DNA of 64,000 nt from Alphaproteobacteria bacterium (GTDB lineage Bacteria > Pseudomonadota > Alphaproteobacteria > GCA-2746255). The translations under genes and the position numbers were made by a program. Shown in pieces: positions 540 through 9,983 of this stretch (within the stretch, counting starts at the first letter, position 1; the number at the start of each line of letters is the position of its first letter). The DNA lies in NCBI GenBank assembly GCA_021296325.1, contig JAGWAR010000003.1:5796-69795 (forward strand), written 5' to 3'. The notes under the pieces were generated by a model. That model saw nothing but the letters and a program-made list of their open reading frames with translations, made no database searches and was not told where the DNA came from.

Positions 540-864
540 TGCAGACTCCGTCTGTGTGAGTGGGTTTTCCCGTTCACGGGAGAGCCCGGCCCGGCAAGGT
601 GCCCGGGTTCTCCCGCCTTTTCGTTCGGTCGCGGCGAAGGTCGTTCGGCCGGAACCATCGACGATGGGTCTGCTGCCCCCGATGAGTCGTGGCAAAGCGA
701 GAGCGGCCCGCCGAATCCGGCGGTCTCTCTCAATCGAAAGATGTAAGGGTCGTGAAAAATACATTCGCACCGGATTCCCGTTGCCGACAACATCCTTCAA
801 ACGAAGCCATGTCACCGTCTACGGAAATCCGCACCCGTCGGGGTAACCCCGCCCAACGGCTGGT

Positions 865-1040
865 GACACTCGACGGTAGGTCTCCTGGCTTGCGGATATA
901 GGCTTTAGCGCGTCCTGCCTTCCCAGTTTCCCAGTGGCTTTTATGGACGCAGCCTCCGCTCACAGTTGCGGGGGCAGCCACGGCATTGGCCGGTTATGGC
1001 CTCACCGTGTTCCCTTGTTATCCCCGAAAACGGGGAACCG
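865..1040 (-). promoter_or_regulatory. Cobalamin (AdoCbl) riboswitch in the 5' leader of the TonB-dependent receptor
   Basis: Minus-strand reads AAGGGAACACGGTGAGGCC...CTGCCCCCGCAACTGTGAGCGG...AGCCACTGGGAA..GGGAAGGC...AGCCAGGAGACCTACC. These are the conserved GGGAA/GGUG, CUGCCCCCGCAACUGU, GCCACUG and B12-box (AGCCAGGAGACCUGCC-like) elements of RF00174. Confidence 0.7.
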
Positions 1041-1087
1041 TCGAAAAGGAGCTTAGCGAATTTCCCGGCACTTCTCAACCAAAGACA

Positions 1088-1162: not shown

Positions 1163-1732
1163 CTAAGCCGATAGCTCTTCGTATTGTTTTACGAATTCAC
1201 CAGCCAGCGAACGCAACACCAGCTTGATCTGGGTCAGGATTTTCTCGCCCTCGCCGTCCGTCGTCATCTTGGCGTAATTCGATCCGAAGGAACTTATCCA
1301 AGGTCCGGGCGATTCTTTGATATGAACGGAGATGATGTTTTTGGCACCGTCCGCCTCGACCATGACCGCCAAGGCAACGTCACAGATCGATTCGGCCATG
1401 AAAACACCGTAGGCGTGACATTTGCCGGAAAATTTCTGTAGTTGCATCGAGGTAATGGTCGCACCTTGCGGCATCGCGGCAAGCAAATGCCCAAGGAGAT
1501 AATCACCGATGGAAATCGTGTGGTATTTGTTCGAAAGGTTGTCGGACATGTATTCGAAGGTGGCATTGCCAAACGTGGAACGGTCCGCCATCGAGATCTT
1601 ATCCATCATCGGAGCGGCGCCCGGCACCTGCTGCGCCGTCGGTTGTGGAATGTTGACCTGGGTCGCCCGGCCGCAACCAACGAGAGCCGTGGCCAAAACG
1701 AGGACCGCCAAAAGTCTGCTGTAATTTTTCAT
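1163..1732 (-). CDS. Lipoprotein of unknown function (189 aa), lower GC than surroundings
   Basis: Signal peptide with lipobox LVGC (MKNYSRLLAVLVLATALVGCG). No recognisable catalytic motifs. GC is roughly 55% against about 64% locally. Confidence 0.55.
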   Translation of the reverse strand: MKNYSRLLAVLVLATALVGCGRATQVNIPQPTAQQVPGAAPMMDKISMADRSTFGNATFEYMSDNLSNKYHTISIGDYLLGHLLAAMPQGATITSMQLQKFSGKCHAYGVFMAESICDVALAVMVEADGAKNIISVHIKESPGPWISSFGSNYAKMTTDGEGEKILTQIKLVLRSLAGEFVKQYEELSA

Positions 1733-1889: not shown

Positions 1890-2099
1890 ATGACCGAAAC
1901 CGCATCCACCATCACCTGCCCGGAATGCGGGCACACAAAGACCGAGGCGATGCCGACGGAGGCTTGCGTCTATTTCTACGAATGCGGAACCTGCGGCGCG
2001 CTTCTGAAGCCAAGGAAGGGGGATTGTTGCGTCTTTTGTTCCTATGGGTCCGTCCCCTGCCCGCCCGTCCAGGAAGCCCGGGCCGGGCGGGAGACCTAG
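1890..2099 (+). CDS. GDCCVxC-domain small cysteine-rich protein (69 aa from ATG 1890; track ORF starts at an upstream GTG, 1863)
   Basis: MTETASTITCPECGH...CVYFYECGTCGALLKPRKGDCCVFCSYGSVPCP has ten Cys including the GDCCVFC signature of the GDCCVxC (seleno)protein family. An SD-like AAGGG lies 8 nt upstream of ATG 1890. Confidence 0.65.
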   Translation: MTETASTITCPECGHTKTEAMPTEACVYFYECGTCGALLKPRKGDCCVFCSYGSVPCPPVQEARAGRET

Positions 2100-2312
2100 G
2101 CGCCAAGGACGGCGAGCGCCGGTTTGGGGTGCCTTTAGCTCTTTCTTAAGGCGCATACGGTAGTAACTGCAGACGGAGAAGTGGGCCATTTGAAGGGGAC
2201 ACTCGACCGTGCATACGCCGATGAAAAGCGAGAAGGCATTCCTCTGCACGCCCGCGGCCAAGAGGCCGTCGGCGAGAAGGATGGGCTGCGCCCATCCTTC
2301 GGGGGGTGCCCG

Positions 2313-3632
2313 GTGACTCCCTACGAAATCCTGCAACTTCTTCGCAAGCATGAGAAATGGCTTGCCGGCAAGGCCGATGGCGAGCGCGCGGATCTGAGCC
2401 AGGCCGATCTGTCGGGCCTGGACCTTTCCAAGGCGGATCTGCGGAAGGCGCGCATGAATGGCGCCGTTCTCAAAAACTGCAACCTGACCGGCGCCAATCT
2501 GGAAGGCGCCAGCCTCTACGCGGCGAATCTGTCCGACTGCATCCTGAGAAAGGCGAACCTCACGAAGGCCGATTTACATGGCGTCGATCTCAAGAAAGCC
2601 GACTTGACCGAGGCCAATCTGGAAGGCGCCGACCTGCGGGAGGGCCGGATGTTCGACATGAGCTAGGGGGACGGCTGGAAAGCCGTCGGCAGCAACCTCG
2701 GGCAATCCGTCCTGAACGGCGCTATTTTGAAAAACGTCAACCTCACCCGCGCTAACATGAAAAAGGTGTCCGCCCTGGATGCCGACATGTCGGGCGCGAC
2801 GCTGGTGGGCGTCAAACTTCAGGAATCGGATCTGAAAGGCGCCAATCTAAGCAATTCAAACCTTGCAGGCGCCAATCTCGGGAATACGGACCTGTCCAAC
2901 TGCAATTTCGACGCGGCCAATCTCACCCGTGCCAACGTGGCAGGCGCAAACCTTGCCAACGCCAATCTGGAAACGGCGAACCTGATGGACGTGGAGATGG
3001 CGCTTTCCCATGTGAAGAACGCCAAGCTTCCGCGCACGCCCCCGAAGGGCAAGCGGCCGATCCAGGTTGTGCTGGAGGACCATTTGCGCTGGATCGAAAC
3101 CCGGGGCAAGGAAGGCGAACGGGCCAATTGCGACGGCTACGACCTTACCAATCTGGACCTTTCCGGCATCGACCTCAGCGGCGCCAGCATGAAAGGGGCC
3201 GACCTGTCTCGCGCCGATCTTCACGGCTGCACGTTCGAGCTTTCCGACCTGTCCCGCGCCACGCTTCAGAACACGAATCTGGAAGGCGTGAACATGGCCG
3301 GGACAAACCTGACGGAGGCCGACCTGACCGGCGCCAATTTTCATGGGGCGCGGCTTGTCTCGGTCGAGCTTCGCGACCAGGCGGGGCGCTCCACGGGACG
3401 AATGTGGCCCACCAATTTGAGCCGGGCGGCCCTGCTGGGCGCCTGCCTCGCGGAATCGGACCTGACGGGGGCCAACCTGCGCGGGGCCGATCTGCGCGGG
3501 GCCGATCTGCGCGGGGCCAACATGGCCGGGGCGGCCGTGGAAGGCGCCAATCTGGAGGGCGTGCAGTTCAAGGGCGTCATCGCCTTCGACGGCGTGATCG
3601 AGGACGTCGCAAAGCAAAAGCGGGCGGGTTAA
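2313..3632 (+). pseudogene. Pentapeptide-repeat protein paralogue 1 (PRP1), interrupted by an in-frame TAG at 2664-2666; otherwise a 439-codon frame
   Basis: Track ORFs 2181..2666 and 2727..3632 are in the same frame, separated only by one amber codon (..LREGRMFDMS*GDGWKAVGSNLGQS..). The start is placed at GTG 2313 by homology: (M)TPYEILQLLRKHEKWLAGK aligns with MSPKDIIRLLRKHERWLQGK (PRP2) and MSPHEIIRLLRKHEQWLQGK (PRP3). The body is A(D/N)LxG-type pentapeptide repeats. Confidence 0.7.
3477..3521 (+). repeat. Three tandem 15-bp units (ctgcgcggggccgat x2, ctgcgcggggccaac) inside PRP1 encoding (L)RGAD repeats
   Basis: Read directly: ..ctgcgcggggccgatctgcgcggggccgatctgcgcggggccaac.. translated GANLRGADLRGADLRGANMAG. 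Confidence 0.8.
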
Positions 3633-3643
3633 CCCTGATAGAC

Positions 3644-3660
3644 CCCGTCGGACGGCGCGT
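3644..3660 (+). terminator. Putative rho-independent terminator after PRP1
   Basis: CGGACG-gcg-CGTCCG hairpin followed by atttccataaaattttt (T-rich). Confidence 0.45.
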
Positions 3661-3920
3661 CCGATTTCCATAAAATTTTTCGAAAATTTGATTCCCTCTT
3701 GCCAGGGAACGGCGTCGATTGGCCGTTTCGCTGAACTATTTCGTTAAAGCAAAAAATTTTATCTAAATTCAAAACAAATTCTAACCAAATCCGAATCGAA
3801 AATTATTGAAAGCTTTATTCGATTTAAGGTTTCTTCTCGTTAAGTGAGAAGGAGTGGGCACGAGGCAAACACGGTTTCCTTTCTGTTAAGCGAATTAGGA
3901 AGATCGCTTTTTTCGAAGGT
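3661..3920 (+). promoter_or_regulatory. AT-rich (~40% GC) 260-bp spacer between PRP1 and PRP2: probable regulated promoter or curved-DNA region
   Basis: Strong compositional contrast with the 64% GC flanks. It contains A-tracts (aaagcaaaaaattttatctaaattcaaaacaaattctaacc), direct repeats ttcgaaaat / atcgaaaatt and tctcgttaagtga / tctgttaagcga. The only ORFs are short overlapping ones with no support. Confidence 0.4.
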
Positions 3921-3941
3921 ATGGAACCAAGTAGGTGTGAC

Positions 3942-5205
3942 ATGTCTCCAAAGGACATCATACGGCTGCTGCGAAAGCACGAAAGGTGGCTACAAGGCAA
4001 GGTCGGCGGCGTACAGGCCAACCTTTCGAACATGAACCTAACCGGGTTGGATTTTTCCTATTCCAACCTGAGTCAGGCCGAGCTTAACAGCACCAACCTC
4101 AAGCGCAGCAATTTGAACGGCGCCAACCTTTCGGGTGCGCATCTGCCGGCGGCCGACCTTTCGCTCGCCAATCTGATTCACGCGGACTTCACCGGCGCAC
4201 ACATGCAAGGCGTCAACCTGCACAAGGCCGTTCTCAAGCGCGCCAAGCTTGAGCTTGCGGATTTGCGGGAAGGCCGCGTTGCCGCCTGGAGCGAATCCGG
4301 CGACTGGAAAGCCATGTCCATCGCGGCCGATCTCAGCAACGCCGTCTTCGACGAGGGCGAACTGACCGATGCCAATTTGAGCGGCGCTGATATGCGCGGA
4401 AGTTCAGGCAAGGACGCCAACCTCTCCGGCACCATCCTTACCGGTGCAAAACTGGACAACGCCGATTGGAAAAAGGCGAACCTGACCCAGGCCAACCTTA
4501 CGGACGCAAGGCTTGTGGAAGCGAATTTCGCCGGCAGCAATTTCAACGCGGCGACCCTTGTCCGGGCCGACGTTCACGGAACCGATTTTTCGAACGCCAT
4601 CCTCGATACCGCCAATCTCGAGGATGCGCCGATCGAATTCGCAAAACTGCAAGGCGCAAAGCTTCCGGCGTCATTCAAGAAGCGGGCCAAGCCGCTGCAG
4701 AACGTCCTCAGGGATCATCAGCGCTGGATCGAAACCCGGGGAAGAACCGGCGAACGGGCCATGCTGGACGGCTATGATCTGAGCGGCCAGAACCTGTCCG
4801 GCATCGATATGAGCGGCGCCAGCCTCCGCGGGGCGGACCTTTCCGAGGAGGATCTAAGCACCGGCACCTTCGAATTAACAGACTATTCTTACGAATATGG
4901 AAGGCGCGCGGCTTGCCGGCGCCAATCTTCTGGAGGCCAATTTAAGCGGGGCAAACCTTCACAACGCCCAGCTGATTTCGATCGAGCTTCGGGATTCCAT
5001 CGGCAAGCGTACGGGACGGATGTGGCCGTCCAACCTTACGCGCGCAACGCTGATCAATACCCGGCTGGCAGGCGCCAATCTTACAGAAGCCAACCTGACC
5101 GATGCCAATATGCACGGCGCAGATCTTGACGGCGTGACTTTTGCCGGAGCGGGCATCCGCGTGGCTCCGGCAGAGCCGGAAGGCTACGGAAATTCGGCCT
5201 CGTGA
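3942..5205 (+). pseudogene. Pentapeptide-repeat protein paralogue 2 (PRP2), frameshifted near 4875-4895 by a ~17-nt deletion relative to PRP1 and PRP3
   Basis: N-terminus MSPKDIIRLLRKHERWLQGK from ATG 3942. In-frame translation degenerates into Arg/Gln-rich nonsense after ..FELTDYSYEY. The +1 frame (track ORF 4897..5205) resumes the paralogous sequence NMEGARLAGANL...VELRDSIGKRTGRMWPSNLTRATL. Nucleotide alignment with PRP1 and PRP3 shows 40 nt here where they have 57 nt. Confidence 0.65.
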
Positions 5206-5250
5206 ACACGAAACCCATGAACAACCATCAAGCCTACAATTAGGTGAAAC

Positions 5251-6546
5251 GTGTCCCCTCATGAAATCATACGGTTGCTTCGGAAGCACGAGCAGTGGCT
5301 GCAAGGCAAGCCCGAGGGTGCGCAGGCGGATTTTTCCAAGCTGGATCTTTCCGGCCTGGACCTTTCCAGCGCGAATTTGAGCCGGGCAAACCTGAATGGC
5401 GTGTCCCTGAAAAACTGCAACCTGACCGGCGCCAACCTTGAGAACGCCAATTTGTACGCGGCCGAATTTTCCTATTCGACGCTTGCGCATGCGAATCTCA
5501 AGGGCGCCGACCTGCATGGCGTAAATTTCTACAAGGCCGACCTTAGCGGAGCCAGCCTTGAAAAGGCCGATCTGCGGGAGGGCCGCCTCGCCGTCATGAC
5601 GGGCAAGGGCACCTGGCAGGTCGTCGGCAGCAACCTTGGCCGCTCGATCCTGGACGAGGCCACGCTTCGGGGCGCCAACCTGACGCGTACCGACATGAAG
5701 GCCTGCTCGGCAGTTGGAGCCGATTTTTCCGGGGCGACGATGGTCGGCGCGCGCATGAAAAACGCCAATTGCGAAGGCGCTAACCTGAACCATGCCAACC
5801 TTTCGGGCGCCAATCTTGGAAATGCCAATCTGAAAGGCTGCAATTTCAGTGGCGCCACGCTGGTCCAGACCCACGTGACGGGCGCCGATTTCTCAAACGC
5901 GAATCTTGAAACCGCCAATCTGGTGGACGTGCCGCTGACGCTTGCAAAAGTGACCAAGGCGCGCCTGCCGGCCACGCCGTCGGAGCGGAAAAAGACGATC
6001 GAGGCCATCCTCGAGAGCCACATGAAGTGGGTGAAAAGCCGGGGCAGCATGGGCGAACAGGCCATCCTGGACGGCTATGACCTGAGCTGGCTCAACCTCG
6101 CCGGCGTGGACTTGAGCGGCGCCAGCCTGAAAGGCGCCAATCTTTCGGAAACCGACCTGCATGGCGGGATTTTCGAACTGGCCGATTTTTCCGGGGCTGC
6201 CCTTCAGGGCACGAATCTGGAAGACGCCGTCCTGTCCGGCGCCAGCCTTTCGGAAGCGGACCTGAGCGGCGCCAATTTGCGCCGGGCTCATCTGCATCCG
6301 GTGGAATTGCGGGATCAAAACGGCATCTCGACCGGGCGCACCTGGCCCACCAACCTCTCGCGGGCGGCCCTTCTGGAAGCCAATTTGAGCGGCGCCGACC
6401 TCACATCGGCGAATCTGACCCATGCCGATTTACGCGGCGCGGACCTGCGCGATGCCAGTCTGAAGCAGGCGATCGTCGAAGGCGTGAACATGGAAGAAGC
6501 CTATTTCGGCGAAGATGGAAAGAGGGCCGCCGCCGCGGCGTCCTGA
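5251..6546 (+). CDS. Pentapeptide-repeat protein paralogue 3 (PRP3), 431 aa, apparently intact
   Basis: MSPHEIIRLLRKHEQWLQGKPEGAQADFS.. followed by three blocks of A(D/N)LxG pentapeptide repeats. Non-repeat segments ..IEAILESHMKWVKSRGSMGEQAILDGYDLS.. and ..VELRDQNGISTGRTWPTNLSRAALL.. are shared with PRP1 and PRP2. Confidence 0.8.
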   Translation: MSPHEIIRLLRKHEQWLQGKPEGAQADFSKLDLSGLDLSSANLSRANLNGVSLKNCNLTGANLENANLYAAEFSYSTLAHANLKGADLHGVNFYKADLSGASLEKADLREGRLAVMTGKGTWQVVGSNLGRSILDEATLRGANLTRTDMKACSAVGADFSGATMVGARMKNANCEGANLNHANLSGANLGNANLKGCNFSGATLVQTHVTGADFSNANLETANLVDVPLTLAKVTKARLPATPSERKKTIEAILESHMKWVKSRGSMGEQAILDGYDLSWLNLAGVDLSGASLKGANLSETDLHGGIFELADFSGAALQGTNLEDAVLSGASLSEADLSGANLRRAHLHPVELRDQNGISTGRTWPTNLSRAALLEANLSGADLTSANLTHADLRGADLRDASLKQAIVEGVNMEEAYFGEDGKRAAAAAS

Positions 6547-6571
6547 CCACCATCCCCCCTGTGCCCTGACC

Positions 6572-6596
6572 CGGCCGGCGAACACGGAACGCCGGC
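6572..6596 (+). terminator. Putative rho-independent terminator after PRP3
   Basis: GCCGGCG-aacacggaa-CGCCGGC hairpin followed by ttgtat. Confidence 0.4.
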
Positions 6597-6653: not shown

Positions 6654-7400
6654 ATGCGCATAAGCCCCCTGCCCTGGCTTGAGCCGGTGATCGCCCACCG
6701 CGGCGCAAGCGGGGTGGCGCCGGAGAACACCCTGGCCGCGATCCGCCGGGCGGGCGAGCTTGGCGCCCGCTGGGTGGAGGTCGACCTTCGCCGGACCGCG
6801 TCGGGGCCTTTCGTGCTCATGCACGACGCCACCCTCGATCGCACGACGAACGGCACGGGCCTGGTTTCGGAAACGCCTTGCGAGGCGATCGCCGGGTTGG
6901 ACGCCGGCGGCTGGTTCGGGTCGGACTTCGCGGGCGAGCCGGTACCGACACTGAATGCCTTTATGGCGCTTTGCGGCGAGCTTGGGCTGGTAGCCAATAT
7001 CGAGATCAAGGCGGAAGCCGACGCGGACGCGGTTGGTTATGCCGCCGCCAAGGCCCTGCTTGAAGGCTGGCCGGGAACGCTGCCGCCGCCGCTGATCTCA
7101 AGCGATTCGCCCACCCTGTTGCGCGCCGTCGCGAAAATAGCGCCCGATTTTCCCCGTGGCCTCATCGTAACCCAGGTGCCAAGCGAAGCCGTGCTCAACG
7201 AACGCGCCTGGGGATGCGTTTCCGTGCACGCCAGCGATACGTTTCTTACGCGGGCCAAGACCGCGTTGCTGGTCGCCAGTGGCTACGCCGTGCTGGTGTA
7301 CACGGTCAACACGCCGGCGCGCGCCCGAACGCTTTTCGGCTGGGGGGTCGATGCCATCTTCACGGACCACCCGGAGCCGGCGCGCTGGCAGAACGGCTAG
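6654..7400 (+). CDS. Glycerophosphodiester phosphodiesterase (GDPD family)
   Basis: MRISPLPWLEPVIAHRGASGVAPENTLAAIRRAGELGARWVEVDLRRTASGPFVLMHDATLDRTTNG carries the HRG..ENT and E.D motifs of GDPD. RBS GGGAGAG precedes ATG 6654. Confidence 0.8.
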   Translation: MRISPLPWLEPVIAHRGASGVAPENTLAAIRRAGELGARWVEVDLRRTASGPFVLMHDATLDRTTNGTGLVSETPCEAIAGLDAGGWFGSDFAGEPVPTLNAFMALCGELGLVANIEIKAEADADAVGYAAAKALLEGWPGTLPPPLISSDSPTLLRAVAKIAPDFPRGLIVTQVPSEAVLNERAWGCVSVHASDTFLTRAKTALLVASGYAVLVYTVNTPARARTLFGWGVDAIFTDHPEPARWQNG

Positions 7401-7711
7401 CGGCCGGCTTCGAGCAAAAACCCGATGGCAAGCAGCGTCAACAACCGCCGCGTGCGGGCATCGATTTCCTTCTGTGTCCCATCCCCGGACGCCGCACCCG
7501 CATCCGACGTCTCTCGCCGCGCCCGCAAGGGTGGCCGCGTATCGGCGGGTGGCGCCATCGCGGTTAGAGCCGGCGGTTCGACGGCGGCTTCGCGTGCCAG
7601 CGTGAAACGGGGATGCTCCAGGGTTACCAGAGCGACACCGGTAAGCCCCAGCAAGAAGGCGCCGAGCGCATGGATGCCGATCTTCCGACCAGGAAATCGC
7701 ATCGTCATCAT
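7397..7711 (-). CDS. Possible small two-helix membrane protein (104 aa)
   Basis: Two hydrophobic segments (IHALGAFLLGLTGVALVTL; LLTLLAIGFLL). It is convergent with the GDPD gene, overlapping by 4 nt. There is no homology evidence. Confidence 0.3.
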   Translation of the reverse strand: MMTMRFPGRKIGIHALGAFLLGLTGVALVTLEHPRFTLAREAAVEPPALTAMAPPADTRPPLRARRETSDAGAASGDGTQKEIDARTRRLLTLLAIGFLLEAGR

Positions 7712-7884
7712 CTGCCTCCTTTGATTCCCGGAGTGCAGGGTAGCGCGACCGCCCTAAGGAAAAATTAAGTAATACATTGATTTTATTGATTATTATCGTC
7801 TTTTGCAGAAAAGATGCGCGACGTATTTAGCAGGTTTGCCGTGCAAATTCGCGGCGAATGCGCCGAAGCCAGCGTTTCCGCCCA

Positions 7885-9342
7885 TCACGCCCCCTGCCCG
7901 AATGGTCCGAACATGGATTCGGCAGGACCGGCCGTGACCGGCCGGCCGGAAAGGTGGCGGTTGATCCAGGCCGGCAGTTTCGGCGCCGGCATTGGATGGC
8001 CGATGCCATAGCCCTGGGCCAGATCGCAGCCAAGCTCGGTCAGAAAATCCCGGGCGGGCCCGGATTCGATTCCCTCGGCAACGACCGTGACCCCGAGTCG
8101 CTCGGCCAGGTAAATCAGGGACTGCACGATCGCCACGTCGCTCATGTTCGTCGTGATGTTGGCGATGAAGGACGGGTCGATCTTGATTTCGTGGATGGGC
8201 AGTTTTTTCAGATAGGCAAAGGAGGAGAACCCCGTCCCGAAATCGTCAACCGAGATCCGAATTCCCATGGAATGAAAGCGATTTAGAATCTCCAGAATGT
8301 GATCGAGGTTCAGCATTAACGCGCTTTCGGTGATTTCCAGCACGAGAAGTTCGGTCGAGATCTGCCAGTGCTCCAGCAGGCCGATCACCCGTTCGGGCAA
8401 TTCGAGATCGTGCAGGGCGCGCGGAGAAACGTTGATCGCGACCGGCAGGGATAGCCCCTGCCGGCTCCAGACGCCTACCTGTTCAAGCCCCATGCTGATC
8501 GTGGCCTCCGTCAGGGTCTTGATCACGGCGGTGCGTTCCGCGGCGGGAATGAAGTCGCCGGGAGGCACCAGCCCATGCACCGGGTGATGCCAGCGCACCA
8601 GCGCCTCGACACCGACCAGGTGGCCCGTCTTCAGGGAAATTTTCGGCTGGTATTCGAGCTTCAGCTGGTCCCGTTCGAGGGCTTCCCGCAGCTCGCTGGC
8701 ATAGAGGAAACGGCGGTGCATCTGGTCGTCGCGGGCTAGGTTGTACAGGGCATAGCCGCTGTTCAGGCGCTTGGCTTCGTACATCGCCTGATCGGCATGA
8801 CGGAACAGCGTCGAGGAATCGGCGCCATGCTCCGGAAAGAGCGCAATACCGATGCTGATGCCGACGTCGACGAAACTCCCATCCAGCGCGATCGGCACCT
8901 CCACCGTATGGGCGATCTTTTCGGCCAGGGCGAAGGTGCCCTCCAAGGACGCGGTGGTGGGCAGAATGGCCATGAACTCGTCCCCGCCGAGACGGGCAAG
9001 GGTGTCCGATTCACGGCACGTCCCGACCAGCCGCTCGGCCACCTTCTTCAACACCTCGTCGCCCGCATCGTGGCCCAGCGTATCGTTGATTTCCTTGAAC
9101 CGGTCGAGGTCCATCATAAGCACGGCAAGGCGGGTGTTGTTCCGCCGCGAAAGCGCGATGGCGCGGTCGAGGCGGTCATGAAACAACGCCCGGTTGGAAA
9201 GGCCCGTCAGGGGATCGTAAAGGCTTAGCTGTTCCAGCTCTTCCTGGGTGCGGACGAGTTCGTTGGTAAGCTCGGTGACGCTCCGGTAGGTTTCGTCAAG
9301 CTCGGTTTCCAGGGCGGCAATGGTGGCCCTGGCGGCACGCAA
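7885..9342 (-). CDS. GGDEF-EAL protein (diguanylate cyclase/phosphodiesterase) with only a coiled-coil N-terminus and no sensor domain
   Basis: The RLGGDEF motif and EAL domain (..LKLEYQPKISLKTGHLVGVEALVRW..) are present. The track start 9405 overlaps the upstream gene by 58 nt; a TTG at 9342 lies immediately after the upstream stop (9347-9349). Confidence 0.8.
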   Translation of the reverse strand: MRAARATIAALETELDETYRSVTELTNELVRTQEELEQLSLYDPLTGLSNRALFHDRLDRAIALSRRNNTRLAVLMMDLDRFKEINDTLGHDAGDEVLKKVAERLVGTCRESDTLARLGGDEFMAILPTTASLEGTFALAEKIAHTVEVPIALDGSFVDVGISIGIALFPEHGADSSTLFRHADQAMYEAKRLNSGYALYNLARDDQMHRRFLYASELREALERDQLKLEYQPKISLKTGHLVGVEALVRWHHPVHGLVPPGDFIPAAERTAVIKTLTEATISMGLEQVGVWSRQGLSLPVAINVSPRALHDLELPERVIGLLEHWQISTELLVLEITESALMLNLDHILEILNRFHSMGIRISVDDFGTGFSSFAYLKKLPIHEIKIDPSFIANITTNMSDVAIVQSLIYLAERLGVTVVAEGIESGPARDFLTELGCDLAQGYGIGHPMPAPKLPAWINRHLSGRPVTAGPAESMFGPFGQGA

Positions 9343-9346
9343 CGCG

Positions 9347-9769
9347 TCATTTCCATTTGACGATTTCAACCCGGGTCCCCTTGCCAATGGTGGAAGTGAT
9401 CGCAAAATCGTCCATCAGACGCTTGACGCCGGGCAGACCCTGTCCGGGATTGCCGCCTGCCGGTACGCCGTCCTCGACGGCGCGGCGGGTATCCGAAATG
9501 CCGGGCCCCTGATCGATAAAGACGCAGCGTATGCCGATGGCGCTGCCGTTTTCGGCCAGATGCATCTCCATCCGCCCACCACCACCATGCAGCAAGGTGT
9601 TGCGCGCCAGCTCGCTGACCGAGGTTGCGATACGGGTCTTGTCGAGGGCCGAGAAACGCAGCTCTTCGGCGTATTGCCGGGCCGCCCGCCGGGTGCGGAT
9701 GATGTCTTCTTCGGAAGCGATGTCATACGCGTTCATGATCGCTTGCTCTTGGCAGTGCGCGATTTTCAT
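9347..9769 (-). CDS. RsbW/SpoIIAB-like anti-sigma regulatory factor (GHKL Ser/Thr kinase), 140 aa
   Basis: ..ATSVSELARNTLLHGGGGRMEMHL...IRCVFIDQGPGI.. shows N-box/G-box-like HATPase_c motifs. Size is typical of partner-switch kinases. Confidence 0.65.
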   Translation of the reverse strand: MKIAHCQEQAIMNAYDIASEEDIIRTRRAARQYAEELRFSALDKTRIATSVSELARNTLLHGGGGRMEMHLAENGSAIGIRCVFIDQGPGISDTRRAVEDGVPAGGNPGQGLPGVKRLMDDFAITSTIGKGTRVEIVKWK

Positions 9770-9983
9770 CCGACATTTTTTCGTTGCGTTGCGTTGCCGC
9801 TAAACTCTCACGGGCAGTCTTAAGAAACGATAAAATGCGCGGCGTGCGCACAGCGCGACGTTACACACAACGGTATGTGAATCATGTCGCGCGCGTGCAC
9901 GGGATCGCGTGCATAAGTGTGAAGAAGAAAAATCCCGGACGAAACCATCCAGGGCCACGACCGGAACGATCGATTGCGGGAAG

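What the first reader, a model, noticed from the sequence alone, without database searches (positions are those of the whole stretch)
2181..6596. Tandem array of three paralogous long pentapeptide-repeat proteins sharing conserved non-repeat helical motifs
Three co-directional genes (PRP1 2313-3632, PRP2 3942-5205, PRP3 5251-6546) encode 400-440-aa proteins built from three blocks of A(D/N)LxG pentapeptide repeats. All share the same interspersed non-PRP segments. The first is an N-terminal helix (M)SP(K/H)(D/E)II(R/Q)LLRKHExWL(Q/A)GK. The second is a central segment (R/K)P(I/L)Qx(V/I)LxDHxRWIETRG(K/R)xGERAxLDGYDLS, which itself resembles the N-terminal helix (H-x-x-W-hydrophobic-x-x-K/R-G), suggesting an internally duplicated module. 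The third is VELRDQxGxSTGRxWPTNLSRAxLL. PRPs normally lack such ordered, conserved inserts; known ones (Qnr, MfpA, AlbG) are DNA or substrate mimics. A three-copy array with decayed members, next to a GDCCVxC Cys-rich protein and inside a tRNA-flanked accessory stretch, is not a described system as far as I can tell. It could be a mimicry-based immunity, decoy or sensor family under diversifying selection, but this is conjecture. GC and codon usage match the host, so the family is probably old in the lineage.
Basis: partly seen in the sequence, partly recalled or inferred. Interest (0 to 1): 0.75.

Follow-up and report, generated by a model that had tools for sequence, protein, structure and literature searches.

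The report
Three tandem pentapeptide-repeat genes, two broken
The window holds three old, side-by-side copies of an uncharacterised beta-helix (pentapeptide-repeat) protein that is common in Alphaproteobacteria; only one copy is intact, and the "special" helices are ordinary end-caps of this fold, so the finding is real but fairly ordinary.

Summary
Three co-directional pentapeptide-repeat protein (PRP) paralogues share the three stated non-repeat motifs and are 50-58% identical. Only PRP3 (5251-6546) is intact. PRP1 has an in-frame TAG at 2664-2666. PRP2 has a 17-nt deletion and frameshift at 4878-4890.

AlphaFold (pLDDT 91) shows that the "helical motifs" are the N-terminal capping helices of two quadrilateral beta-helix domains in one chain. 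The third motif is a beta-hairpin that projects from domain 2. This cap-plus-repeat module is a common PRP building block: the central-cap profile hits 1909 cluster representatives.

The whole architecture defines a large alphaproteobacterial family of 405-460 aa proteins, annotated only as "pentapeptide repeat-containing protein". Elsewhere it is single-copy with varying neighbours.

The order GDCCVxC gene, then PRP_a, then PRP_b recurs only in two close relatives, which have two intact copies. dN/dS there is 0.12-0.32, which means purifying selection. There is no tRNA flank, no defence-system signal and no sign of horizontal transfer.

Function is unknown. The most likely role is a rigid cytoplasmic binding or mimicry scaffold, with an unidentified partner. 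Interest is low to moderate.

The parts
1890..2099 (+). GDCCVxC-domain small Cys-rich protein. The ORF opens at GTG 1863; the ATG at 1890 matches the start used in relatives.
   Evidence: NCBIfam NF041374, 105.5 bits against a cut-off of 40. Orthologues sit directly upstream of PRP_a in L001:7968-8171 and L016:6180-6383.
2313..3632 (+). PRP1, the 'a' paralogue. GTG start. Disrupted by an in-frame TAG at 2664-2666.
   Evidence: Translation. The orthologues OFTM_a and Ga_a are intact and 66% identical. The pentapeptide register is not eroded.
2664..2666 (+). Premature TAG stop in PRP1 (codon 118). It falls in the loop or hairpin between beta-helix blocks A and B.
   Evidence: Paralogues have G, E or K at this column.
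3633..3941 (.). AT-rich spacer (41% GC) between PRP1 and PRP2. It contains short elements shared with the a-b spacer of the relatives.
   Evidence: blastn-short matches TTTTAxCTAAATTC and AATxCGAATCGAAA; GC 0.411.
3942..5205 (+). PRP2, the most divergent paralogue (about 50% identical to all others). ATG start. Frameshifted.
   Evidence: It branches outside the a+b clade. There is no counterpart in L001 or L016.
4878..4890 (+). Site of the 17-nt deletion in PRP2 relative to PRP1 and PRP3. It shifts the reading frame by +1.
   Evidence: DNA alignment of the three paralogues. Frame analysis.
5251..6546 (+). PRP3, the 'b' paralogue. GTG start with an AGGTGA Shine-Dalgarno sequence. Intact, 431 aa.
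   Evidence: An identical gene occurs in an independent Logan assembly of SRR35761419. AF2 pLDDT 91.
5257..5301 (+). PRP3 residues 3-17: N-terminal capping helix of beta-helix domain 1 (EIIRLLRKHEQWLQG).
   Evidence: AF2/DSSP helix H3-17, pLDDT 94-98. H13, G22 and G23 are conserved family-wide.
5584..5646 (+). PRP3 residues 112-132: hairpin or loop insertion after the conserved ADLREG motif. It splits domain 1 into blocks A and B.
   Evidence: AF2 strands E114-116 and E122-124, pLDDT 54-68. D107, R109 and G111 are nearly invariant or invariant.
5926..5976 (+). PRP3 residues 226-242: basic, Pro-rich interdomain linker.
   Evidence: Low pLDDT (54-68). Net charge +5 over residues 229-270.
5977..6036 (+). 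PRP3 residues 243-262: central helix, which is the N-cap of beta-helix domain 2 (HxxW...GxxG signature).
   Evidence: AF2 helix H243-262. H257, W260, G265 and G268 are at least 90% conserved. The motif is present in about 78 of the 120 best hits. The profile finds 1909 cluster representatives.
6298..6348 (+). PRP3 residues 350-366: beta-hairpin (PVELRDQNGISTGRTWP) projecting from domain 2.
   Evidence: AF2 strands E351-354 and E360-365, pLDDT about 95. G358, T361, G362, N368 and L369 are invariant in the subfamily alignment.

Best explanation
The locus is a vertically inherited tandem cluster of paralogous genes. They belong to a large, unnamed alphaproteobacterial family of cytoplasmic two-domain pentapeptide-repeat proteins.

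Each protein consists of two right-handed quadrilateral beta-helix rods. Each rod is preceded by a homologous capping helix (LLxxHxxW...GxxG). A basic Pro-rich linker joins the rods. One conserved hairpin or loop excursion projects from each rod.

In this genome only PRP3 is intact. PRP1 (nonsense codon) and PRP2 (17-nt deletion) were inactivated recently. Both kept a perfect repeat register and the same dN/dS as PRP3 until then.

Mechanism (inferred, not shown): like every PRP with a known mechanism (MfpA, Qnr, AlbG, HetL), the protein has no catalytic site. It most likely works by binding a conserved cytoplasmic partner through its rigid surface and projecting hairpins, occluding or mimicking that partner's normal ligand. 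The partner is not identified.

My confidence is about 0.85 in the structural and evolutionary part. It is about 0.35 in the 'rigid binder or mimic of a cytoplasmic partner' mechanism.
For: - PRP identity: PF00805, 261 bits.
- The two caps are homologous.
- Family: about 75 proteins of 405-460 aa are 28-37% identical over 90-100% of the length and share H13, G22/23, ADLREG and H257/W260/G265/G268. They come from Caulobacter, Phenylobacterium, Asticcacaulis, Maricaulis, Ferrovibrio, Micavibrio and Stellaceae, and carry only generic names.
- The cap module is widespread and modular.
- Old paralogy and orthology: PRP1 to OFTM_a is 66.5% identical and PRP3 to OFTM_b is 69.7%.
- Purifying selection: dN/dS 0.24-0.32 for a and 0.12 for b.
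- The lesions are recent: the repeat register is intact in all three copies, and the relatives have intact a and b.
- Cytoplasmic location: the N-terminus is a charged helix, with no hydrophobic signal (direct reading).
- Capping helices and functional loops are standard PRP features (PMC8145042).
Against: - No partner, phenotype or expression data exist.
- The relative orientation of the two domains is uncertain (pTM 0.64).
- The protein is only mildly acidic (pI 5.8, net charge -8; family median pI 5.9, range 4.65-8.95). This gives no strong support for DNA mimicry.
- Genomic context is not conserved outside the close relatives, so guilt-by-association fails.
- The two lesions could not be confirmed in an independent assembly.
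- The window clade lacks two Arg residues that are nearly invariant in the wider family: R85 and R89 are G/K and H here.
Confidence: 0.6

Rival explanations
1. The proteins are topoisomerase-directed DNA mimics like MfpA, Qnr or AlbG. The two-rod chain would bind gyrase or topo IV and modulate or protect it.
For: - Conserved projecting hairpins recall the Qnr loops A and B, which are required for activity (PMC8145042).
- The protein is cytoplasmic with a mildly acidic surface.
- The family is single-copy across Alphaproteobacteria, which fits a universal partner.
Against: - Scores are far below the curated cut-offs: Qnr 86.7 against 240, MfpA 90.5 against 360.
- The protein is twice the size.
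- Two domains joined head to tail replace the C-terminal-helix head-to-head dimer.
- The C-terminal tail is not conserved among the paralogues.
- Any PRP matches these structures.
- There is no gyrase, topoisomerase or mfpB-like neighbour.
Confidence: 0.15
2. The proteins are adaptors in two-component or c-di-GMP signalling. The beta-helix would dock onto a histidine-kinase-type (GHKL) ATPase or a c-di-GMP enzyme.
For: - Two proteins with the same cap-PRP-cap-PRP architecture carry a C-terminal PilZ domain: P0072 at 28.2 bits against a cut-off of 22.5, and P0083 at 20.9 bits.
- The Ferrovibrio member sits between five tandem histidine kinases and an OmpR-type response regulator.
- Another member is divergent from a PAS histidine kinase.
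- The Micavibrio member is directly upstream of MutL, which is also a GHKL ATPase.
- In the window, a GGDEF-EAL gene and an HATPase_c_2 protein lie 1.3-2.8 kb downstream.
Against: - The sample is small: 6 distinct contexts. Signalling genes are abundant in these genomes.
- The GGDEF-EAL/HATPase segment is absent from the syntenic relative L016.
- One of the PilZ hits is below the cut-off.
- The Maricaulis, P0002 and P0005 contexts show no such link.
Confidence: 0.12
3. One reading: a mimicry-based immunity, decoy or sensor array under diversifying selection, located in an accessory island.
For: - There are several tandem paralogues, and some have decayed.
- Copy number varies between relatives, three against two.
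- PRPs occur in some defence systems. The HalA model gives a weak 16.6-bit hit.
Against: - No PADLOC hits for the PRPs or their neighbours.
- The HalA hit is only 16.6 bits against a cut-off of 250.
- dN/dS is 0.12-0.32.
- Synteny with the flanking core genes is conserved.
- Composition matches the host.
- There are no tRNA, integrase or repeat boundaries.
- Family members elsewhere are single-copy among housekeeping genes.
Confidence: 0.04
4. An envelope or metal-stress module. The PRPs would act together with the GDCCVxC Cys-rich protein and the neighbouring TonB-dependent receptor, in analogy to Caulobacter YjbI/PerA.
For: - The order GDCCVxC, PRP_a, PRP_b is conserved in three genomes.
- Caulobacter YjbI is a PRP that controls TonB-dependent receptor expression and responds to zinc (PMC12864828).
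Against: - YjbI's defining features are absent: a signal peptide, two flanking Cys pairs and a charged C-terminal tail.
- The adjacent receptor is preceded by a cobalamin riboswitch, so it is probably a BtuB-type cobalamin importer transcribed away from the array.
- The three genomes are close relatives with whole-region synteny, so the adjacency carries little information.
- Six distant family contexts lack GDCCVxC.
Confidence: 0.05
5. The stop codon in PRP1 and the frameshift in PRP2 are assembly or sequencing errors, or are tolerated, so that all three genes are functional.
For: - The repeat register and dN/dS of PRP1 and PRP2 are indistinguishable from intact genes.
- The lesions could not be checked in the independent Logan assembly.
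Against: - A 17-nt deletion is not a typical homopolymer error.
- The parts of the window that could be compared with the Logan contigs are 100% identical.
- PRP2 also has lower GC3 after the shift (0.657) and a divergent, shortened C-terminus.
Confidence: 0.15

Closest known systems
Unnamed alphaproteobacterial two-domain PRP family. Examples: WP_305300967.1 and WP_269628182.1 (Phenylobacterium), WP_426013834.1 (Caulobacter), and the Ferrovibrio, Maricaulis and Micavibrio proteins P0071, P0066 and P0116.
   Same: - Length of 405-460 aa.
- N-terminal cap helix with a conserved His and a Gly pair.
- ADLREG motif followed by a loop.
- Central 'HxxW(V/C/I)x(S/T)xGxxG' cap at about residue 255.
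- A loop or hairpin in domain 2.
- 28-37% identity over at least 90% of the length.
   Different: - The window clade is a divergent branch.
- It has HxxW in the N-cap, where the main family has HxRLW...PGGARA.
- R85 and R89 are replaced.
- It has a 'GxxTGRxWPxNLSRA' hairpin, shared only with P0002, P0005 and P0071.
- It is present as a tandem array next to a GDCCVxC gene, not as a single copy.
MfpA / Qnr / AlbG (topoisomerase-interacting PRPs; PDB 2BM4, 2XTW, 3PSS, 2XT2)
   Same: - Right-handed quadrilateral beta-helix.
- Cytoplasmic, with no catalytic domain.
- Projecting loops (Qnr, AlbG).
   Different: - These proteins are 180-220 aa with a single rod.
- They form a head-to-head dimer through a C-terminal helix.
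- They have no HxxW N-cap.
- Scores against the curated HMMs are far below the cut-offs.
HetL (Nostoc PCC 7120, PDB 3DU1)
   Same: - N-terminal capping helix.
- Two loop insertions from the beta-helix.
- Acts by protein binding (HetR).
- Best NCBIfam hit, at 212 bits.
   Different: - The score is below the 260-bit cut-off.
- HetL is a single domain of 237 aa.
- It is specific to cyanobacterial heterocysts.
YjbI/PerA of Caulobacter crescentus (PMC12864828)
   Same: Alphaproteobacterial PRP. Genomic or functional link to TonB-dependent receptors and metals.
   Different: YjbI is small and secreted, with a signal peptide, two flanking Cys pairs and a charged C-terminal tail. None of these features is present here.

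Membership tests
Pentapeptide-repeat protein superfamily (Pfam PF00805; Rfr fold) | At least 8 contiguous A(D/N)LXX pentapeptides | tested here: met
   PF00805 scores 261 bits against a cut-off of 20.2, in 9 stretches. The centre (i) and i-2 positions are canonical in 15-17 of 15-18 repeats per block.
Pentapeptide-repeat protein superfamily (Pfam PF00805; Rfr fold) | Right-handed quadrilateral beta-helix | tested here: met
Alphaproteobacterial two-domain capped PRP family (unnamed) | Length of 405-460 aa with an N-cap helix containing His and Gly-Gly, an ADLREG motif, and a central HxxW...GxxG cap at about residue 255 | tested here: met
   H13, G22, G23, D107, R109, G111, H257, W260, G265 and G268 are at least 90% conserved across 75 sequences that include PRP3. 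The central motif is in about 78 of the 120 best hits.
Qnr family (NF033086) / MfpA (NF000349) | Score above the curated HMM cut-off | tested here: not met
   Qnr scores 86.7 against 240. MfpA scores 90.5 against 360. All Qnr sub-models are also far below their cut-offs.
Qnr family (NF033086) / MfpA (NF000349) | Single rod of about 200 aa with a conserved C-terminal dimerisation helix | tested here: not met
   The protein is 431 aa with two capped domains. The C-terminal tails of PRP1, PRP2 and PRP3 are unrelated to each other.
Qnr family (NF033086) / MfpA (NF000349) | Binds or protects DNA gyrase or topo IV | not testable with these tools
   This needs biochemistry or MIC assays.
YjbI-type secreted PRP (Caulobacter YjbI/PerA) | Secretion signal, two conserved Cys pairs flanking the helix, and a charged C-terminal tail (PMC12864828) | tested here: not met
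   The N-terminus is a charged helix (MSPHEIIRLLRKHEQW). The four Cys residues (56, 152, 175, 197) lie within repeats and do not form flanking pairs.
HetL (NF047416) | Score above the curated cut-off | tested here: not met
   212.4 bits against a cut-off of 260, in 4 stretches.
Alr5209 family (NF052603) | Equivalog-level match to a protein of about 149 aa | tested here: inconclusive
   The whole-protein score of 182.9 exceeds the 125-bit cut-off. However, it is the sum of 6 separate stretches against a 113-position model, on a 431-aa protein. This is a repeat-summation artefact and not equivalence.
PipB/PipB2 type III effectors (NF011743/4) | Score above the curated cut-off | tested here: not met
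   156.5 against 354, and 133 against 274.
Known anti-phage defence systems (PADLOC; HalA) | Match to a defence-system protein model | tested here: not met
   No PADLOC hits for PRP3 or for five neighbouring genes. HalA scores 16.6 bits against a cut-off of 250.

The most novel reading that the evidence does not exclude
The two-domain capped PRP family could be a conserved alphaproteobacterial regulator. It would dock onto dimeric GHKL-type ATPase or c-di-GMP signalling proteins, in analogy to MfpA binding the GyrB ATPase domain. The conserved hairpins would be the specificity determinants. The lineage-specific a/2/b array next to GDCCVxC would then represent sub-functionalised copies that are now being pruned. 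This would give the first function for one of the largest uncharacterised PRP families.
Probability: 0.08. Interest if true: 0.55.

Novelty: new member of a known kind. Interest (0 to 1): 0.22.

Why it matters
PRPs are a very large superfamily. The 2021 review (PMC8145042) counts about 39,000 sequences and notes that understanding of their biochemical function lags increasingly behind. This work does not supply a function. It does delimit a coherent, widespread alphaproteobacterial two-domain family, and a reusable 'HxxW cap plus repeats' module found in about 1,900 clusters at 50% identity. It also points to tractable relatives (Caulobacter, Phenylobacterium) in which a knock-out or interaction screen could assign a function. 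For this window specifically, the practical outcome is an annotation: one intact PRP gene, two probable pseudogenes, and no mobile or defence island.

Tried and rejected
- Exact-sequence look-ups of the PRP1 and PRP2 fragments, to confirm the lesions in the independent Logan assembly of SRR35761419, found nothing on record. Only PRP3 and GlpX/RecJ were found, both 100% identical.
- The afdb50 fold library was unavailable.
- Alignment A2, which included distant members, was too divergent for the metagenome scan. The closer alignment A3 gave one useful locus, L016, and one unrelated giant membrane PRP, L017.
- Pfam scans of the isolated helices and hairpins at E up to 10 gave no family.
- The promoter and terminator scan gave nothing above shuffled expectation.
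- Literature searches for GDCCVxC or GDCCV found nothing relevant. Searches for PRP plus PilZ found nothing relevant. CC_0350 and CCNA_02342 are only listed as 'hypothetical protein with pentapeptide repeats' in regulon tables, and I could not link them to this family.
- dN/dS between paralogues, and between the window and OFTM260, is saturated (dS about 1.1-1.6) and therefore not interpretable. Only the OFTM260 against Ga0209273 comparison is usable.
- I considered that the relatives' PRP_b is a PRP2/PRP3 recombinant. I rejected this because it is closer to PRP3 along its whole length.
- I considered YjbI/PerA membership and rejected it, because the signal peptide and Cys pairs are missing.
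- The BFVD search returned only generic PRPs with low TM-scores.

Full report
**1. What is in the sequence**

Between 2313 and 6546 on the + strand there are three co-directional pentapeptide-repeat (PRP) genes.
- PRP3 (5251-6546) is an intact 431-codon ORF. It has a GTG start preceded by AGGTGA.
- PRP1 (2313-3632, GTG start) contains an in-frame TAG at 2664-2666 (codon 118).
- PRP2 (3942-5205) lacks 17 nt relative to PRP1 and PRP3 between the codons for 'FEL' and 'TNMEG' (4878-4890). Its frame therefore shifts by +1.

All pieces score far above the Pfam Pentapeptide cut-off, and PRP3 reaches 261 bits at E 1.7e-79. No other PRP is encoded in the 64-kb window.

With the lesions masked, the paralogues are 49-58% identical over their full length. 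The important correction is that two of the three genes are disrupted.

**2. What the 'non-repeat motifs' are**

I predicted the structure of PRP3 with AlphaFold2, using an alignment of 75 family members. The model has mean pLDDT 91 and pTM 0.64.
- It shows one short strand every five residues, which is the signature of the quadrilateral beta-helix.
- This pattern is interrupted by helix 3-17, a hairpin or loop at 112-132 (low confidence), a low-confidence basic Pro-rich linker at 226-242, helix 243-262, and a confident beta-hairpin at 351-365.
- A short, poorly supported helix ends the chain.

Motif 3 (VELRDQxGxSTGRxWP) is a hairpin projecting from domain 2.

A profile-profile comparison of the N-terminal and central helix columns across the family gives probability 85% and E 5.9e-6.

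According to the 2021 review PMC8145042, 13 of 16 solved PRPs have capping helices. QnrB1, AhQnr, AlbG, HetL and Rfr23 all have loop insertions, and those of QnrB1 are required for its activity on gyrase.

**3. The family**

A search of 5.8 billion proteins found no close homologue. The best hit is 37% identical. It did find many proteins of 405-460 aa that align over 90-100% of PRP3.

Conserved features across these proteins:
- an N-terminal helix with an invariant-class His and a Gly-Gly;
- a strongly conserved RADLRG...ADLREG region;
- a central signature 'HxxW(V/C/I)x(S/T)xGxxG' near residue 255. This signature is present in about 78 of the 120 best hits.

Named members come from Caulobacter, Phenylobacterium, Asticcacaulis, Maricaulis, Ferrovibrio, Micavibrio and Stellaceae. 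All are annotated only as 'pentapeptide repeat-containing protein' or 'YjbI with pentapeptide repeats'.

A 53-position profile of the linker, central cap and first coil alone was scored against 1.84 billion cluster representatives. It finds 1909 proteins at E<=1e-3 and 149 at E<=1e-10. Among those listed or read:
- full-length family members, matched at about residues 230-290;
- apparent half-length proteins;
- proteins with two or three cap-plus-repeat modules, such as P0166, P0161, P0164 and P0195.

The same HxxWL cap also heads unrelated architectures. Examples are P0006, P0043, the PilZ-fused P0072 and P0083, and the 1445-aa membrane protein in L017.

So the motifs are not peculiar to this array. 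They are a common, though unnamed, PRP building block. Pfam has no model for them.

**4. Evolution and context**

Two relatives carry the same region:
- the MAG 'Alphaproteobacteria bacterium OFTM260' (L001);
- a 211-kb metagenome contig, Ga0209273_10000075 (L016).

The region is about 70% identical at the nucleotide level across the PRP, lipoprotein/GDCCVxC and GDPD segments, and 76-78% in the flanking receptor and RecJ segments.

The shared gene order is as follows:
- TonB-dependent receptor (-);
- lipoprotein (-);
- GDCCVxC (+);
- PRP_a (+);
- PRP_b (+);
- GDPD (+), seen in L016 only, because the L001 contig ends within PRP_b;
- in L016, a variable segment, then tRNA-Glu (-) and RecJ (-).

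PRP_a is intact in both relatives. PRP_b is intact in L016. In L001 it has no lesion over the 413 codons available, but the contig ends within the gene. PRP1 groups with PRP_a (66% identity) and PRP3 with PRP_b (67-70%). PRP2 branches outside the a+b clade and has no counterpart in the relatives.

The a/b duplication therefore predates the divergence of these lineages, so these are not recent segmental duplicates. PRP2 is either an older paralogue lost from the relatives or a fast-evolving duplicate.

The AT-rich PRP1-PRP2 spacer shares short elements with the relatives' a-b spacer.

Between the two close relatives, dN/dS is 0.24-0.32 for a and 0.12 for b. This indicates purifying selection, not diversifying selection. 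Deeper comparisons are saturated.

The pentapeptide register is equally intact in PRP1, PRP2 and PRP3. PRP1 against its orthologue has the same dN/dS (0.20) as PRP3 against its orthologue. Both lesions must therefore be recent, or else they are errors. I could not verify them independently.

The array is not tRNA-flanked, because both tRNAs in the window lie downstream. The segment that does differ between the window and L016 next to tRNA-Glu is 7400-9970, which encodes a GGDEF-EAL protein and an HATPase_c_2 protein. It is not the PRP array.

The receptor upstream is preceded by a cobalamin riboswitch at 858-1057 on the - strand, scoring 118 bits. It is therefore probably a BtuB-type importer unrelated to the PRPs.

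In six distant family contexts the PRP is single-copy, lacks a GDCCVxC neighbour and has different neighbours each time. The neighbours include histidine kinases plus a response regulator, MutL, HSP20, and a PAS kinase with a cold-shock protein.

PADLOC finds nothing for the PRPs or their neighbours.

**5. Mechanism**

Shown:
- the PRP fold, from prediction;
- the two-domain capped architecture;
- the conserved hairpins;
- the absence of a signal peptide or any catalytic domain;
- purifying selection;
- wide distribution as a single-copy gene in Alphaproteobacteria.

Inferred: like the PRPs whose mechanism is known, the protein most likely acts stoichiometrically. The known examples are MfpA as a T-segment DNA mimic on GyrB, Qnr and AlbG on gyrase, and HetL on HetR. 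The protein would bind a conserved cytoplasmic partner through its rigid surface and projecting hairpins.

Evidence does not discriminate between candidate partners.
- A topoisomerase target is the default by analogy. However, the curated models are missed by a wide margin, the size and oligomerisation logic differ, and the charge is only mildly acidic (pI 5.8).
- A signalling role is hinted at by two PilZ fusions and by some kinase-rich neighbourhoods. The sample is small.
- The YjbI/PerA envelope model fails on all of its defining features.

**6. Verdict**

The finding is a real but fairly ordinary locus. It is a lineage-specific tandem cluster from a large, functionally unannotated PRP family, with one live gene and two probable pseudogenes. 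It is not an island, not a defence system, and not structurally exceptional for a PRP.

Its residual value lies in three things: the delineation of the two-domain family, the delineation of the HxxW cap module, and some weak leads (PilZ fusions, GHKL-rich neighbourhoods) towards a function.

Noticed in passing
window 858-1057 (-): Cobalamin riboswitch (RF00174, 118 bits). It lies upstream of a TonB-dependent receptor that runs off the window start. In the relative L001, a BtuF-like periplasmic binding protein follows the receptor.
   Followed up: partly
window 7400-9970: This segment holds a small ORF, a GGDEF-EAL protein (7885-9405, -) and an HATPase_c_2 anti-sigma-like kinase (9347-9769, -), next to tRNA-Glu. 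It has no counterpart in the otherwise syntenic relative L016, where about 1.5 kb of unrelated DNA takes its place. This segment, and not the PRP array, is the variable tRNA-adjacent piece.
   Followed up: partly
window 3633-3941: A 309-bp spacer with only 41% GC in a 62% GC genome. It shares the short elements TTTTAxCTAAATTC and AATxCGAATCGAAA with the PRP_a-PRP_b spacer of OFTM260 and Ga0209273. These may be a conserved promoter or operator.
   Followed up: partly
P0072, P0083 (proteins): Two proteins have the same cap-PRP-cap-PRP architecture plus a C-terminal PilZ (c-di-GMP-binding) domain. P0072 scores above the Pfam cut-off, and P0083 scores just below it.
   Followed up: partly
L002:578-10127: In Ferrovibrio, the family member sits directly after five tandem paralogous histidine-kinase genes and directly before an OmpR-type response regulator.
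   Followed up: no
P0169: A 695-aa protein built from at least 11 tandem copies of a unit of about 47 residues. The unit contains the cap-like motif 'RRYALLSEEHQRWVTTADGGTHYCLKNI' and has no pentapeptide repeats. It appears to be a repeat protein made of cap-like units alone.
   Followed up: no
window 5251-6546 vs NCBIfam NF052603: The Alr5209 'equivalog' model passes its curated whole-protein cut-off (182.9 against 125 bits) only because six separate repeat stretches are summed. Long PRPs could therefore be mis-named by this rule.
   Followed up: partly
window 1163-1732 (-) ; L001:7263-7868 ; L016:5475-6080: A conserved lipoprotein of 189-201 aa with a Cys lipobox and no Pfam family. It is divergently oriented to the GDCCVxC gene in all three genomes.
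   Followed up: no
P0155: One member of the Caulobacter PRP cluster is a 637-aa fusion with an N-terminal HHH_8 plus PHP (PolX-like) region. This is probably a gene-call or frameshift artefact, but it was not checked.
   Followed up: no
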